Shown: positions 9,265 through 52,806, counted from the first letter of the stretch. The stretch: DNA of 64,000 bases from an uncultured Acidobacteriota bacterium (GCA_963822445.1 CAWGHO010000003.1:1664001-1728000), one strand, 5' to 3'. The notes: generated by a model not told the origin, from the letters alone. Numbers and translations are program-made.

Positions 9265-9758
9265 GCAGCTTGTCACCACTGGTTCCGATGTCCATCAAGG
9301 GTCTGATGCTCGACCCGGTCTCGAATTCTCCGATCGTGGTGCTCAAGGACGACGACGAGAAGTTCTTCCTGCCGATCTGGGTCGGCATCTTCGAAGCCAA
9401 CGCCATCGCCTTGCAGCTCGAGAACGTCACTACGCCGCGGCCGATGACCCACGACCTCCTGCGCAACATGATCTCCGAGCTCGACGGGCACGTGACCCGC
9501 GTGGTGATCAACGACCTCCGCGACTCCACCTTCTTCGCCCAGATCCGGCTGAATGTCGGCGCGAAGACCCTCGAAGTCGACGCCCGCCCCAGCGACGCCA
9601 TCGCCCTCGCCCTTCGCACCGAAGCGCCGATTTACGTGGCGCAGTCCGTCCTCGATCAGGCCCAGACCATCACTCCCGAAGGCGAGGACCAGGACGAGAA
9701 GATGAAGAAGTGGTTCGAGAACCTCGGACCCGACGATCTGGGCAAGTACAAGATGTGA
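9261..9758 (+). CDS. Bifunctional nuclease family protein (DUF151)
   Basis: LPIWVG.FEA.AIA, RPMTHDLL, DARPSDAIALALR. Confidence 0.92.
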   Translation: MSSLSPLVPMSIKGLMLDPVSNSPIVVLKDDDEKFFLPIWVGIFEANAIALQLENVTTPRPMTHDLLRNMISELDGHVTRVVINDLRDSTFFAQIRLNVGAKTLEVDARPSDAIALALRTEAPIYVAQSVLDQAQTITPEGEDQDEKMKKWFENLGPDDLGKYKM

Positions 9759-9839
9759 GTCTCAGAGTCGCAGAGTCGCAGAGTCGCAAAGTTGGAGCGA
9801 AGCACTTTGAGACTCTGCGACTTTGAGACTCTGAGACTT
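9757..9839. repeat. Tandem 8-mer inverted-repeat hairpin (unit GAGTCGCA)
   Basis: Four GAGTC(T/G)CA units + AAGT, 11-nt loop, ACTT + four TG(A/C)GACT(C/T) units. Confidence 0.9.
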
Positions 9840-9864
9840 CCCGACTAGAATCCGCTCCGGCCCA

Positions 9865-10620
9865 ATGATCATCACTGTCGCGAACCAAAAAGGCGGCGTT
9901 GGCAAGACAACGACGGCGATCAACCTCTCTGCCGCGGTCGCCAACAAAGGCTTCAAGACCCTCCTGATCGACCTCGATCCGCAGGCCAACTCGACGATGA
10001 GTTACGTCGACGCGCGCGCGGTCACGAAGTCGATGTACGACGTTCTGGTCAGCGAGGAGCTCGAGTTTCCGGAGGTCATCGTCCAGACGCCGCTGCCGAA
10101 TCTCTGGCTGGCACCGTCGCGGATCGCGCTGGCCAAGCTCGAATCGAAGCTGATCGGCGATCTCGACGGCCCCTTCCGGTTGAAAGACCGGATGAAGGAA
10201 ACGGCCAGCGAGTACGACTACATCTTCATCGACACGCCGCCGACGTTGGGCATGATCACCGTCAACGCGCTGGTCGCCTCGACGCACGTGCTCGTGCCGA
10301 TCCAGTCCTCGTACTTCGCGCTGGAAGGCACCGACGACCTGCTGGAGACGATCGAGAAGATCAAGGCCCGCCCCAATCCCAACCTGCAGCTGCTGGGTGT
10401 GGTCATCACCATGCACGACAAGCGCACGACCCTTTCGAAAGACATTCACGAAGCCATCGGCAACGTCTTCGGCGATCGCGTTTTCAACACCGTGATCACC
10501 AAATCGATCCGGCTCGAGGAGAGCCCGGCGTACAAGGAATCGATCTTTACCTTCGCCCCGCGATCGAGCGGGGCCATGGAGTACTACTCGCTGTCCGAAG
10601 AGCTGCTGGCCCGGGTGTGA
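9865..10620 (+). CDS. parA: ParA/Soj family ATPase
   Basis: NQKGGVGKTTT, DLDPQAN, IDTPP, LEESP; adjacent parB. Confidence 0.92.
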   Translation: MIITVANQKGGVGKTTTAINLSAAVANKGFKTLLIDLDPQANSTMSYVDARAVTKSMYDVLVSEELEFPEVIVQTPLPNLWLAPSRIALAKLESKLIGDLDGPFRLKDRMKETASEYDYIFIDTPPTLGMITVNALVASTHVLVPIQSSYFALEGTDDLLETIEKIKARPNPNLQLLGVVITMHDKRTTLSKDIHEAIGNVFGDRVFNTVITKSIRLEESPAYKESIFTFAPRSSGAMEYYSLSEELLARV

Positions 10621-10631
10621 GGAACGAATCG

Positions 10632-11465
10632 ATGGCAAAACGCGGACTCCCCGAACGCTCCGTCATGCGACACGACTCGCATTACGTCGAGGAGTTGACC
10701 AAGCGCTCCGGCCGGCACATCGGCTCGATGTTGCCGCTCGCGTTCGTGGAACCGAACTCCGAGCAGCCCCGCACGCAGCTCGGCAACATCGAAGAGCTTG
10801 CGGCCAGCGTTCGCGAAAAAGGCGTGCTCGAGCCGATTCTGGTCCGGCTCATCGGACCGAATCGCTACCAGATCATCGCCGGCGAGCGCCGGTTCCGCGC
10901 CGCGACGATGGCCGGACTCGATGAGATTCCCGCGATCGAGCTCGACGTGGACGAGCGCGAGCAGCTCGAGATCGCCCTCATCGAGAACATCCAGCGCAAG
11001 GATCTGACGCCGTTCGAAGAAGCGGAAGGGCTGGCCGTGCTGCAGGAGAAGTTCGACTACACGCACGAGAAGATCTCCCAGGTCATCGGGAAATCGCGCT
11101 CGACCGTCACCGAAACCCTGCTCATCAACGAGATCCCCGACCGGATTCGGGTGATGTGCCGCGAGGCCGGAATCTCGAACAAGAGCGTGCTCGTGCAGGT
11201 CGCGCGCGCGGGCTCGGAAGAGGCGATGGAGCAGGTGGTGCGCGCGTTCGCGGCAGGGGAGTTGTCCCGCGACGATCTCCGCCGGCAGACCGCGTCGAAG
11301 CCCGAGCCGAAGAAGGCCGGCCGGCCGAAGAACTACGTGTTCCAGGTCAAGGACAAGTCCCTGCCGTTCTCGTTGAATCTCTCGTTCAAGAAGCCGAACG
11401 TGGAGAAGAGCGAGGTCATCGACGCCGTGCGCGAGCTCCTTCGCCGGCTCGAAGACGAGCCGTGA
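10632..11465 (+). CDS. parB: ParB/Spo0J family protein
   Basis: PN.EQPR, GVLEPILVR, IIAGERRFRAA, ALIENIQRKDL, HTH GKSRSTV. Confidence 0.92.
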   Translation: MAKRGLPERSVMRHDSHYVEELTKRSGRHIGSMLPLAFVEPNSEQPRTQLGNIEELAASVREKGVLEPILVRLIGPNRYQIIAGERRFRAATMAGLDEIPAIELDVDEREQLEIALIENIQRKDLTPFEEAEGLAVLQEKFDYTHEKISQVIGKSRSTVTETLLINEIPDRIRVMCREAGISNKSVLVQVARAGSEEAMEQVVRAFAAGELSRDDLRRQTASKPEPKKAGRPKNYVFQVKDKSLPFSLNLSFKKPNVEKSEVIDAVRELLRRLEDEP

Positions 11466-50366: not shown

Positions 50367-50505
50367 GTAATAGATCCTCCCAAACACGGCTCTTGTACGA
50401 ATTGCCGCGGTGATGGTTTCTTGCTAAGTACGGCGGGCCGATGAAGACGACGGCATTCTAATGGATGGATTGCCCTCGCCGGCCGTACCTGAGGACGACC
50501 AGACC

Positions 50506-51513
50506 ATGCGTCATTTCCTCGGCCTTTTCGTCCTCCTCCTCCTCACCTTCTCAGCCTCCGCCGAAGTGGTAGCCGGCCGTCGGTTCATCCTCGTCCACGA
50601 CCAGTGGGCTCCCGCCGGCGGCGGAGCGGTCATGCCGCTCGGGGTTCCCGCCGAATCCGCAGCATTCGACGGCGAGCGGTTCCTCGTGGTTTGGCGGGAA
50701 GGAACCACGATGCGGATCGCGCTTTTCGATGAAGGCGCGAGCACGGCGATCGCCGAGTCCTCGGTCGCCGTGCCTCCGTTCGCGCCTCTGTTCGTCCGAT
50801 GGGAGGGATCGCGGTATGTCGTGGCCGCCGGTGGCGATCCGGGCGTGGTCGCCGTCGTCTCACCGCAGGGAGTGCTCGAGTCGGTCAGACCCGTGAGCGG
50901 TGCGCGCAGCCTGGTCGACGTGGCCGCGAGCGCGTCCGGCGTCGCGCTGCTCCTCCACTACTCGACCGAAACGCACTCCGGCGTGGTCGACGTGATGCTT
51001 CTCGACAGCGAACACCTCGCTGCCCGGCGCACGACCGTCGGAGCGGTGCAAGCAAGCACGGGGTTCGGCGCGACCTGGATCGGCACGCCTAGGATCGTCC
51101 CGTTTGGATCGGTGTTTTACGTCGTCTGGCGTGAGGCCCGCGCGGGACGCTACGACCGATTGCTCGGCACACAAATGAACCTCGACGGATCAGCGGTCGC
51201 CGGGACACTTCTCGAGACCGCGTATGCCTACCCGTCGCCGTACGCCGTCTTCGTTCATCCGTACGGGACGCGGCTGGCGGTGAATGCGGTGCGCGAGTGG
51301 GGCAGCGGCATCACGACCACGCTCGTCGAACAGGATGGCACCGCGCGGCAACTCACCGATTACTTCGGCACCGCCAATCTGCCGAAACTGGCCACGGTAC
51401 GCCTGCCCGACGGATCGATCTTCGCGATCTACGTCGTCGATGGCGTGGCGAAGATCAAGCCGGTGCTGAACCCGCCGGCGGCACCGCCGCGGCGGCGTTC
51501 CGCGCGACATTGA
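50506..51513 (+). CDS. Hypothetical secreted protein with C-terminal PPRRRSARH tail
   Basis: Signal peptide; [15 protein letters not shown] beta repeats; Pro linker and basic tail. Confidence 0.7.
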
Positions 51514-52687
51514 GCCCTTCCGGATCGCTCTGAGCCGGGAGCGGGTCGCCCGCGAAATGGCACGCCGCGAAGTGTCCCGGCTTGTGCTCGATCAGCGGCG
51601 GAACCTCGGTCTTGCAGATCGGGAACTGCGCGATCGGACAGCGCGTGTGGAAGACGCAGCCGCTCGGCGGATTGAGCGGCGTGGGGATGTCGCCCTTCAG
51701 CAGGATGCGGGTCTTCTTCAGCGTCGGATCGGGAATCGGCACCGCGGAAAGCAGGGCCTTTGTGTACGGATGGAGCGGATCCTCGTACAGCGCGCGGCGC
51801 GGCGAGAGCTCCATGATCTTGCCGAGGTACATGACCGCGACGCGCGTGGAGATGTGCTCGACGACGGAGAGGTCGTGGGCGATGAAGAGGTAGGTCAGTC
51901 CGAGCTCGTCCTGCAGATCCATCAGCAGATTGACGACCTGGGCCTGAACGGAAACGTCGAGCGCGGAGACCGGCTCGTCGAGGACGAGGAACTTCGGATT
52001 CGTCGCCAGCGCGCGCGCAACACCGATGCGCTGCCGCTGCCCGCCGGAGAACTCGTGCGGATAGCGTTTCCGGTAGTCGGGGCTCAGGCCAACGCGTTCG
52101 AGAAGCTGCGCGACGCGATCGCCGCGCTCCGAGCCGCCCATGTCGCCGTGGATGATCAGCGGCTCGGCGACGATCGACCCGACGGTCATCCGCGGGTTGA
52201 GCGACGCGTATGGATCCTGAAACACGATCTGCATGTGACGGCGCATGCGGCGCATGTCCCCGCTGTCGAGGCCGAGGACGTCCGTGCCTTCGAACTCGAC
52301 CGAGCCGGAGGTCGGTTCGATGAGCCGGAGGATGCAGCGGCCGACCGTGGTCTTGCCCGATCCCGATTCGCCGACCAGGCCCAAGGTTTCCCCTTTTGCG
52401 AGACCGAAGCTCAGACCGTCGACGGCTTTGACCTGCGCGACCACGCGCGCGAGCACGCCGCGTTTCACCGGAAAGTACTTCTGCAGATCCTTGACGACGA
52501 GCAGCGGCTCGCCGAGCCCGATCGGAATCTTCGGCGTCGTCTGCGGCGCGGATTTCTCTCTCGGATCATGCGTCGGCTTCGCATCGCGATCGACCTGACG
52601 CGCGGTCTGATCGGCGGGCGTTTGCAGCCCGCCCGTGATCGCGGGGGCCACGCCGTCGTCGCCGGGGATGAAGGGCTTGTCGCTCAT
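51455..52687 (-). CDS. Peptide ABC transporter ATP-binding protein (OppF/DppF)
   Basis: [56 protein letters not shown]. Confidence 0.94.
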
Positions 52688-52712
52688 CGCTCGACTCCGT
52701 CTCGCGACGAGC

Positions 52713-52806
52713 GGATTGAGGATTGAGAATTGAGGATTGAGGATGCGCGTGCTCGCGACTGTCGTTTGGTGTTCATCCTCAATCCTCAATCCTCAATTCT
52801 CAATCC
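52713..52806. repeat. Tandem 7-mer inverted-repeat hairpin (GGATTGA / TCAATCC)
   Basis: Four G(G/A)ATTGA units + GGATG, 28-nt loop, CATCC + four TCAAT(C/T)C units; supplies the oppD stop codon. Confidence 0.9.

What the first reader, a model, noticed from the sequence alone, without database searches (positions are those of the whole stretch)
9757..52806. Family of empty hairpins with the same architecture but a different 7-8-nt unit each time
Seen: five intergenic elements share one layout: 3-4 tandem units, a short loop, then 3-4 reverse-complement units, with the more G-rich arm first. They are 9757-9839 (GAGTCGCA), 33779-33840 (CGGTAGG), 35879-35968 (AGTCGTT), 36485-36558 (GAATGCA) and 52713-52806 (GGATTGA). 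The arms around the four-helix-bundle gene (AGGGACG) follow the same layout. Period, copy number and polarity are conserved while sequence is not, unlike REPs or MITEs. They lie within operons, between convergent genes and between divergent genes, so termination alone does not explain them. Inference: they are scars or non-autonomous copies of the four-helix-bundle cassette, or sites for an oligomeric ring protein that reads repeat spacing, as TRAP does. The variety of units suggests templated or slippage synthesis. This is the best candidate here for an undescribed system.
Basis: partly seen in the sequence, partly recalled or inferred. Interest (0 to 1): 0.82.

Follow-up and report, generated by a model that had tools for sequence, protein, structure and literature searches.

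The report
Gene-less repeat hairpins of pentamer cassettes
The five hairpins are real and are a few of about 250 gene-less copies of a small DNA cassette that elsewhere wraps a five-subunit ring-protein gene in mirror-image runs of 7- or 8-base repeats, which ties a long-unexplained bacterial repeat to an orphan protein, although how the copies spread is still unknown.

Summary
The claim of a different unit each time is a sampling effect. The genome holds at least 243 such hairpins in about 12 repeated unit families, with period 7 or 8 and the G-rich arm first. All 6 four-helix-bundle (PF05635/S23p) genes sit between the same kind of arms.

An arm is 4 units plus 2-5 nt, which gives five core sites; the solved homologues have five chains. 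Variable bases are not mirrored between arms, there are no U-tracts, and gene context is random, so these are not terminators. Orthologous junctions in related species are empty or carry other units. At the lolD-macB site whole cassettes were exchanged between species. Protein clade predicts a short core across phyla.

Best reading: non-autonomous inserts of a REPIN-like two-part system whose Avd-like pentamer reads the arms. No catalyst was found.

Parts are in print: Xanthomonas GGGAATC pairs (read as G-quadruplexes) and the Coxiella rRNA intervening sequence. My nine paper searches found no statement of the link. This scan has noted the same system before in at least 12 other genomes.

The parts
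9757..9839 (.). Empty element of the 8-mer family ADAGKCKC (33 close pairs in the genome); the left arm overlaps the stop codon of the BFN gene; the loop carries a GC-GNA-GC motif
   Evidence: orthologous site short in 12 of 23 relatives, array-bearing with 9 different units in 9
9846..9851 (+). TAGAAT -10-like box in front of parA, seen at most orthologous junctions; the element lies upstream of it (promoter role inferred)
33779..33841 (.). Empty element of the 7-mer family GGCRGYR (34 close pairs); the two arms use different unit variants, so almost every unit has a mismatch
   Evidence: orthologous site short in 14 of 29, array detected in 7
35857..35878 (.). Conserved palindrome between the divergent TPR and coaD genes, not part of the element
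   Evidence: visible in the orthologous loci; position
35879..35968 (.). Empty element of the 7-mer family AGTSRTT (32 close pairs); lies between the palindrome and the coaD -10-like box, so probably outside both transcripts (inferred)
   Evidence: no array in 28 of 29 relatives, another unit in G003; replaced by 15 other letters in contigs of runs X1 and X3
35974..35982 (+). Extended -10-like box in front of coaD, conserved in relatives (promoter role inferred)
36485..36558 (.). Empty element of the 7-mer family RAAKGCA (30 close pairs), between the convergent coaD and oppC
   Evidence: orthologous site short in 12 of 24, array detected in 6
45561..45592 (.). Arm of the filled cassette (unit GAGGNAY), 3' side of the FHB gene; abuts the macB start
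45595..45975 (-). Four-helix-bundle gene (PF05635 23S_rRNA_IVP, TIGR02436; weak match to DGR Avd), 126 aa; no nuclease, transposase or polymerase family matched
45976..46007 (.). Arm of the filled cassette, 5' side of the FHB gene; overlaps the lolD stop and ends at the FHB start codon (supplies an SD-like sequence, inferred)
52713..52806 (.). Empty element of the 7-mer family GAGRATT; supplies the last codons and stop of oppD
   Evidence: 18 of 28 orthologous loci filled with five related GAA/ATTGA-type units, 10 empty with overlapping stop and start
52684..52776 (-). 30-codon mini-ORF from the inner end of the arm, ending on the oppF start; probably a local repair of translational coupling
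   Evidence: not a genome-wide rule (11 real against 9 flipped of 164)

Best explanation
The hairpins are gene-less, non-autonomous members of a two-part mobile system, organised like REPIN-RAYT but built on an Avd-like pentamer. The full form is [four 7-8-nt units + partial unit] FHB gene [mirror array]; the empty form has a 5-60 nt loop instead of the gene. SHOWN: empty and filled forms share arms; empties are dispersed families that come and go at orthologous junctions; they sit mostly on stop codons with no target duplication; some nest inside others; filled cassettes occupy a few conserved sites and were exchanged between species at one of them; a short core in the unit follows the protein clade. 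INFERRED (about 0.6): the homopentamer binds the five core copies of an arm, one per subunit crevice, on single-stranded nucleic acid, as Avd binds flipped-out bases; this fixes period, unit number and polarity and leaves the spacer letters free to differ between families. INFERRED (about 0.45): that binding is needed to copy or keep the elements, for instance by protecting or presenting the hairpin to a borrowed host enzyme. NOT SHOWN: the catalyst, whether the intermediate is DNA or RNA, and any benefit to the host. The 23S rRNA intervening sequences with an S23p gene would be the same cassette landed in an rRNA helix.
For: 641 arrays, 251 pairs, 243 with gap up to 130 nt, 0 close pairs in the opposite polarity; 6 of the 8 long pairs enclose the 6 FHB genes. 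FHB genes in inverted arms: 113 of 127 in the relatives sampled against 0 of 45 controls; 62 of 77 among more distant homologues from over ten phyla, 56 of 77 with a tandem array. Unit count rather than length is kept: median arm 31 nt for period 7 and 35 nt for period 8; 251 of 424 arms are 4 periods plus 2-5 nt. Homologues 2gsc and 2rld have five chains each; the model matches them and Avd (4dwl, 8ub7; TM about 0.7, weak E-values); in the DGR structure all five Avd protomers touch the RNA with flipped bases in the crevices. Core AG[G/T] in 57 of 62 loci and 31 of 36 distinct units near the window's protein (14.3 expected); RAA in 10 of 14 units of the 2rld-like clade against 4 of 49. Fixed unit positions are 96-99% conserved while variable ones are not mirrored between arms (473 of 776, null 463). 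Ten copies share a homologous loop at 59% mean inner identity. Empties of the three lolD-clade units occur in 11 of 12 genomes with that FHB gene and 2 of 18 without. The FHB tree rejects host sister pairs (AU p 9e-6 and 8e-70). In Xanthomonas a 4-unit GGGAATC array overlaps the start of xcc0516, the gene of 2gsc.
Against: No catalytic family in the FHB protein, no reverse transcriptase found in the genome (94.7% complete), and the Y1 transposase-like genes have other repeats. No FHB gene at 120 orthologous loci of the five hairpins. The exact unit of the empties often differs from the arms of that genome's own FHB genes: G043, G046 and G049 have GTGCTGR empties but no GTGCTGR-armed gene was found; G006 and G023 likewise for GAGGKAY. 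In this genome 7 of 14 narrowly defined families have no exactly matching FHB gene, and the 33-copy 8-mer family has no related one. AGGGCYG: 3 genomes with gene and empties, 1 with gene only, 3 with empties only. The 11-of-12 association is among kin: the 12 lie in one 19-genome host clade. A short core cannot by itself explain 96-99% conservation of the other fixed letters. Two long pairs enclose unrelated small ORFs. 14 of 127 FHB genes lack detectable arms. The AG[G/T] core overlaps Shine-Dalgarno-like and stop-codon-like words, which could be selected for translation instead. No binding or mobility was measured.
Confidence: 0.55

Rival explanations
1. Domesticated regulatory sites: the FHB pentamer is a TRAP-like RNA-binding regulator, and the arrays are kept by the host as binding sites that tune stability, processing or translation of the neighbouring transcripts; the second arm sequesters the first.
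For: Five cores per arm and five-chain homologues; Avd binds RNA; the 5' arm ends at the FHB start codon, as for autoregulation; arms stay near consensus while loops drift; most Xanthomonas repeats are transcribed (PMC4692102).
Against: Context equals that of all gene junctions (164 tandem, 41 divergent, 35 convergent against 3320, 778, 779); the same junction is empty in about half of the relatives and carries other families in the rest; the TPR-coaD copy seems to lie outside both transcripts (inferred); no G.U bias on the sense strand (75 against 83, p 0.58).
Confidence: 0.18
2. The FHB gene is passive cargo. The arms belong to a repeat spread by something else (a HUH/RAYT transposase in trans, or slippage plus hairpin template switching), and protein and unit co-vary only because they are inherited together.
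For: No catalytic family in the protein; exact units of empties often lack a matching gene; FHB clades in the genus largely equal conserved loci; two unrelated ORFs are also enclosed; four Y1 genes are present; a GC-GNA-GC motif, recalled as a stable DNA mini-hairpin, is modestly enriched in loops (17 of 212, against 8.2 for genome segments).
Against: The core stays while spacer letters change across more than ten phyla; nearly every FHB gene is armed and controls are not; the three Y1 genes whose flanks were printed or checked have no such arms around them, and two have their own unrelated inverted repeats; sister genomes without the lolD-site gene lack or nearly lack its empties (G050 147 matches against G045 2; G023 15 against G021 and G014 0; G000 5 against G011 0); non-mirrored variants argue against simple fold-back copying.
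Confidence: 0.2
3. Ordinary structural repeats: intrinsic terminators, G-quadruplex sites (the published reading of the Xanthomonas family) or simple repeats kept for folding.
For: Strong predicted hairpins; 145 of 234 sides facing a gene end lie within -5 to +10 nt of the stop; four-unit mode and G4 formation reported for GGGAATC (PMC4692102).
Against: Five or more T in the next 8 nt in only 2 of 120 sense cases; 109 transversion mismatches; no excess between convergent genes; only 35 of 243 elements have four GGG tracts in either arm, yet G-poor families keep the four-unit rule; no Rfam match in the window.
Confidence: 0.05

Closest known systems
Inverted GGGAATC heptamer pairs of Xanthomonas (Rehm et al. 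2015, PMC4692102; abstract, passages, section 10, part 1 of 6 of supplement 2 and a search of 6 supplements read)
   Same: Intergenic, dispersed, four-unit mode, 70 convergent pairs among 186 sets, G-rich arm first in the listed pairs, close to stop codons, degenerate at fixed positions.
   Different: One unit family per genome, read as G-quadruplex, reported as not linked to mobile elements; the main text never names xcc0516 or a helix bundle although its table lists an array on the start of that gene. Here about 12 families coexist, most cannot form G4, and they are tied to FHB genes.
ORF-bearing 23S rRNA intervening sequence with S23p (Coxiella; PMC4990558, passages read)
   Same: Same protein family inside a roughly 30-bp terminal stem; three plus one purine-rich heptamers before the start codon.
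   Different: Defined by its place in an rRNA helix and excision by RNase III. Here all six genes lie between protein genes, and hundreds of gene-less copies exist.
REPIN-RAYT and TIR-TIRYT systems (bioRxiv 2021.07.10.451892, PMC6006769, PMC3733652; passages read)
   Same: A gene flanked by its own repeats at a stable site, with a dispersed population of gene-less hairpin doublets, several families per genome.
   Different: The partner gene is not a HUH/Y1 transposase; arms are tandem arrays, not GTAG-footed hairpins; the FHB tree is not congruent with the host at the lolD site, whereas RAYTs are described as vertically inherited.
Avd of diversity-generating retroelements (bioRxiv 2023.10.23.563531; passages and section 8 read)
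   Same: Same fold; pentameric ring with base-binding crevices between subunits.
   Different: No reverse transcriptase was found in this genome; the Avd model scores 26 bits against a cut-off of 80.
TRAP of Bacillus (recalled, no call)
   Same: A ring with one short site per subunit and free spacer letters.
   Different: Different fold and symmetry; a ligand-controlled regulator of a few operons, not a dispersed inverted element.

Membership tests
Xanthomonas-type inverted heptamer repeat pairs | Intergenic degenerate 7-mer arrays, four-unit mode, convergent pairs near stop codons | tested here: met
   (here also period 8)
Xanthomonas-type inverted heptamer repeat pairs | Four G3 tracts able to form a G-quadruplex | tested here: not met
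   35 of 243 elements have four GGG tracts in either arm
S23p-type rRNA intervening sequence | PF05635 ORF inside terminal inverted repeats with heptamers | tested here: met
   filled form only: 6 of 6 genes
S23p-type rRNA intervening sequence | Located in a helix of an rRNA gene | tested here: not met
   window cassette lies between lolD and macB, no Rfam match in the window; flanks of the other five read as protein-gene junctions (by eye)
S23p-type rRNA intervening sequence | Excision from RNA by RNase III | not testable with these tools
   no RNA holder listed; an rnc gene is present but split over frames in this assembly
REPIN-RAYT | Cognate HUH/Y1 transposase flanked by the repeat | tested here: not met
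   4 Y1 hits, none enclosed by these arrays
REPIN-RAYT | Dispersed gene-less hairpin doublets matching a gene-flanking repeat, polymorphic at orthologous sites | tested here: met
REPIN-RAYT | Partner gene vertically inherited | tested here: not met
   site conserved, but host sister pairs rejected in the FHB tree
MITE | Target-site duplication | tested here: not met
   flank repeats equal to null in 212 elements; old insertions could have lost them
MITE | Conserved internal sequence among copies | tested here: inconclusive
   one family shares a loop at 59% identity; most other loops have no clear match
Intrinsic terminator | U-tract after the stem and excess downstream of genes | tested here: not met
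Diversity-generating retroelement | Reverse transcriptase with template and variable repeats | tested here: not met
   no PF00078 match in a genome 94.7% complete; template repeats not searched
TRAP-like ring regulator | Oligomer binds one short site per subunit with fixed spacing | not testable with these tools
   only indirect support

The most novel reading that the evidence does not exclude
PF05635 proteins are the specificity and replication factor of a transposase-free class of bacterial mini-replicators. Each pentamer clade reads five copies of its own short core, drives the spread and upkeep of matching 7-8-mer hairpins, and thereby accounts for both the heptamer excess of bacterial genomes and the ORF-bearing rRNA intervening sequences; DGR Avd would be one such ring recruited by a retroelement.
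Probability: 0.3. Interest if true: 0.85.

Novelty: new variant of a known kind. Interest (0 to 1): 0.6.

Why it matters
It joins three loose ends: over-represented heptamer repeats in bacteria (called poorly studied in PMC4692102), the S23p/four-helix-bundle family of unknown function with two solved five-chain structures, and the origin of ORF-bearing rRNA intervening sequences. It gives a direct test: five sites for five subunits, with a clade-specific core. This genome is a good test bed because about 12 unit families and 6 diverged genes coexist. If the protein does drive copying, it would be a mobile system with no enzyme of its own and a natural set of ring proteins with different short-repeat specificities. 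If it is only cargo, the G-quadruplex reading of the Xanthomonas family still needs revision.

Tried and rejected
Terminator, G-quadruplex and pairing-selected stem: rejected.

Target-site duplication and insertion into the loops of pre-existing host hairpins: no excess (outer complementarity 3.81 against 3.81).

Loops as captured genome fragments: hits outside the repeats were mostly short (15-21 nt) and chance-like. Residual symmetry of loops: 0.50 against 0.48.

Seed-guided targeting (empty site resembling the incoming unit): suggested by eye at oppD-oppF and by the 15 letters, but not supported across five junctions (p 0.62).

Mini-ORF coupling as a general feature: 16 of 18 at oppD-oppF against 8 of 18 flipped (related loci, not independent), but 11 against 9 of 164 genome-wide.

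Other cargo families: no PF13366. Phage vector: no match in 50,697 phage records, 2 viral contigs, 30 of 72,556 plasmid records.

No RNA holder listed, so expression is untested. The tree of 102 FHB proteins is the quick tree on 123 columns with many open forks. The independent-pairs test failed on input format and was not rerun; sister contrasts were read from the tree by eye. MacGregor 2015 (PMC4679880; abstract, outline and passages) and PMC7015867 (passages) do not mention the link. The 2007 survey of simple repeats was not read; I know it through PMC4692102.

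
Full report
OBSERVATION. The five elements are exactly where stated, fold far better than shuffles and have the G-richer arm first. The closest named homologues of the window's FHB protein come from Acidobacteriota, the best from Thermoanaerobaculia.

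GENOME-WIDE PICTURE. A sequence-blind scan finds 221 inverted tandem pairs, all of period 7 or 8, 213 with a gap up to 120 nt and 217 with the G-richer arm first; a Markov control of 1.8 Mb gives none. A scan with 12 degenerate family patterns finds 641 arrays (318 plus, 323 minus), 251 pairs, 243 close, and no close pair in the opposite polarity. Many of the 139 unpaired arrays show a decayed partner by eye (the output was cut), so the true number is higher. Four of the window's units belong to families of 30-34 close pairs, the fifth to a family of 3. So 'a different unit each time' reflects five draws from a dozen families. Some elements nest inside others (C1:870523, C2:2334282).

LINK TO THE GENE. 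The genome has 6 PF05635 genes; each lies between inverted arrays with its own unit, and they are 6 of the 8 long pairs; the other two enclose unrelated small ORFs. Among FHB genes of relatives with complete flanks, 84 of 89 and 33 of 42 have an inverted arm (4 loci are in both sets, so 113 of 127), against 0 of 45 coaD and yajQ genes. I fetched 30 plus 60 of the hits, not all of them. Among 80 more distant homologues plus 2 viral contigs, 62 of the 77 with full flanks have an inverted arm and 56 also a tandem array, 96 of 99 arrays being of period 7.

ANATOMY. An arm has a sharp outer edge, four full units (294 of 424 arms) and an inner partial unit; median length is 31 nt for period 7 and 35 nt for period 8, and 251 of 424 arms are four periods plus 2-5 nt. 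Each arm thus holds five copies of the first few letters of its unit. In 107 elements with four units per arm, fixed positions are 96-99% conserved, while variable positions are no more mirrored between arms than between unrelated elements (473 of 776 against 463); the set of variants is shared slightly more than chance (259 against 240). Mismatches show no G.U preference on the sense strand (75 against 83) and include 109 transversions; U-tracts are absent (2 of 120). The arms behave as arrays of consensus sites, not as stems selected for pairing. Ten copies of the GGTTGCTG family share a homologous 36-38 nt loop at 59% mean inner identity, so they descend from one copy while their arms stayed near consensus.

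PLACEMENT. With my own simple gene calls, 240 of 243 elements are intergenic, in tandem, divergent and convergent gaps in the same ratio as all junctions; 145 of 234 sides facing a gene end are within -5 to +10 nt of the stop. There is no target duplication and no outer stem.

ORTHOLOGOUS SITES (30 loci returned per search, of 33-35 genomes with a match). BFN-parA: 12 of 23 syntenic relatives short, 9 with arrays of 9 different units. lolA-yajQ: 14 of 29 short, 7 with a detected array. coaD-oppC: 12 of 24 short, 6 with arrays. TPR-coaD: 1 of 29, another unit. oppD-oppF: 10 of 28 empty with overlapping stop and start, 18 filled with five related units. Contigs of runs X1 and X3 cross the TPR-coaD site with 15 other letters in place of the hairpin; other contigs of these runs are 90-97% alike to the window, and gain cannot be told from loss. 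No FHB gene was found in these 120 loci.

FILLED SITES. FHB clades in the genus largely correspond to conserved loci. At lolD-macB, 12 of 30 loci carry the gene, with arms of three or four unit types. The unit follows the protein subclade, not the host: host sisters G006+G046 and G013+G049 are rejected as clades in the FHB tree (AU p 9e-6 and 8e-70). I named these pairs from the host tree but after seeing the larger FHB tree. The cassette was therefore exchanged or re-inserted at a fixed site.

GENE AND EMPTIES TOGETHER. Empties of the three lolD-clade units occur in 11 of 12 genomes with that gene and 2 of 18 without (counts are overlapping pattern matches, not copies). Fisher's p of 1.5e-5 overstates, since the 12 lie in one 19-genome clade; inside it the contrasts are G050 147 against G045 2, G023 15 against G021 and G014 0, G000 5 against G011 0, and G016 (gene, no empties) against G005 (neither). 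Against a strict code, five of these genomes have many empties of a unit that none of their found FHB genes carries, AGGGCYG splits 3 both, 1 gene only, 3 empties only, and the 33-copy 8-mer family of this genome has no related gene in the assembly. At a coarser level the tie is strong: AG[G/T] is in 57 of 62 loci and 31 of 36 distinct units around homologues of the window's protein (14.3 expected from shuffles), and RAA is in 10 of 14 units of the 2rld-like clade against 4 of 49 elsewhere.

PROTEIN. Four helices, pLDDT 96; matches 2gsc and 2rld, five chains each, and Avd weakly. XCC0516 is described as a homopentamer (PMC4990558 citing Lin 2006, which I did not read). In the DGR structure all five Avd protomers contact the RNA, with flipped U and G bases in crevices between protomers. 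No nuclease, transposase or polymerase family matched; no reverse transcriptase was found; none of the four Y1 hits is enclosed by these arrays.

MECHANISM. Most likely the pentamer reads five cores on an arm, which would explain unit number, period, polarity and the clade-specific core, and this binding helps the gene-less hairpins to be copied and kept, as RAYT does for REPINs but with a borrowed catalyst. The shared arms, dispersal, turnover, cassette exchange and core covariation are shown; binding and a role in copying are inferred. Rivals are a TRAP-like regulatory network (0.18), passive cargo of another mobiliser (0.2) and terminators or G4 (0.05).

WHAT IS KNOWN. Rehm et al. 2015 described the gene-less form for one unit in Xanthomonas, with four-unit mode, 70 convergent pairs and closeness to stop codons, and read it as G-quadruplex. 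Row 15 of its supplementary table places a four-unit array on the start of xcc0516, with no partner listed; the main text has no hit for xcc0516 or helix. The Coxiella intervening sequence has three plus one heptamers before S23p and a 28-bp stem. Nine full-text searches found no paper stating the link; the library lacks most subscription journals and bioRxiv supplements were closed. Earlier notes of this scan report the same system in at least 12 other genomes; they are not independent support.

UNPUBLISHED GENOMES.

VERDICT. Real, systematic and mechanistically open. A new variant of known kinds (Xanthomonas heptamer pairs, S23p intervening sequences, REPIN-like organisation). Interest 0.6.

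Noticed in passing
window 42381-42459: A different hairpin family (about 55 genome matches) whose arms also flank a Y1/HUH transposase-like gene at G000:C2:335542-336091; looks like an ordinary REPIN-type element with its REPtron.
   Followed up: partly
window 3943-4103: Another long inverted-repeat element between rapZ and hsp20, about 30 genome matches; the same family sits at coaD-oppC and lolA-yajQ in relatives (L062, L102).
   Followed up: partly
window 59889-59975 and 60825-60849: A third palindromic family (about 26 genome matches) around a small unnamed ORF and a gene that reads like uridine kinase (label from recall).
   Followed up: no
window 35857-35878: A conserved 22-bp palindrome between the divergent TPR gene and coaD across the genus; may be an operator or back-to-back promoter boxes.
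   Followed up: no
G000:C3:961308-962000: The RNase III gene is split over reading frames in this assembly; probably sequencing error, not checked.
   Followed up: no
G000:C1:261010-261413 and C3:1661431-1661786: Two small unrelated ORFs lie between inverted 8-mer arrays; captured cargo or two neighbouring half elements.
   Followed up: partly
L142 (G045, lolD-macB junction): A near-perfect hairpin of CTCTGTG-type 8-mers with the pyrimidine arm first, the opposite polarity; possibly a separate family with other cargo.
   Followed up: no
G042 matches; L122, L143, L146, L150; window 9800-9806: A GC-GNA-GC motif lies next to the C-rich arm in many elements and after the stop of several FHB genes; recalled as a very stable DNA mini-hairpin, a hint at a single-stranded DNA step. 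Only 17 of 212 loops in this genome have it.
   Followed up: partly
window 52684-52776 and L345-L373: Mini-ORFs from inside the hairpin end on the oppF start in 16 of 18 filled loci by script, matching the stop-start overlap of empty alleles; the element seems to have landed in the last codons of oppD.
   Followed up: yes
L342, L343: Two viral contigs carry an FHB gene with heptamer arms, and 30 plasmid records, mostly cyanobacterial, carry homologues; possible routes of transfer.
   Followed up: no
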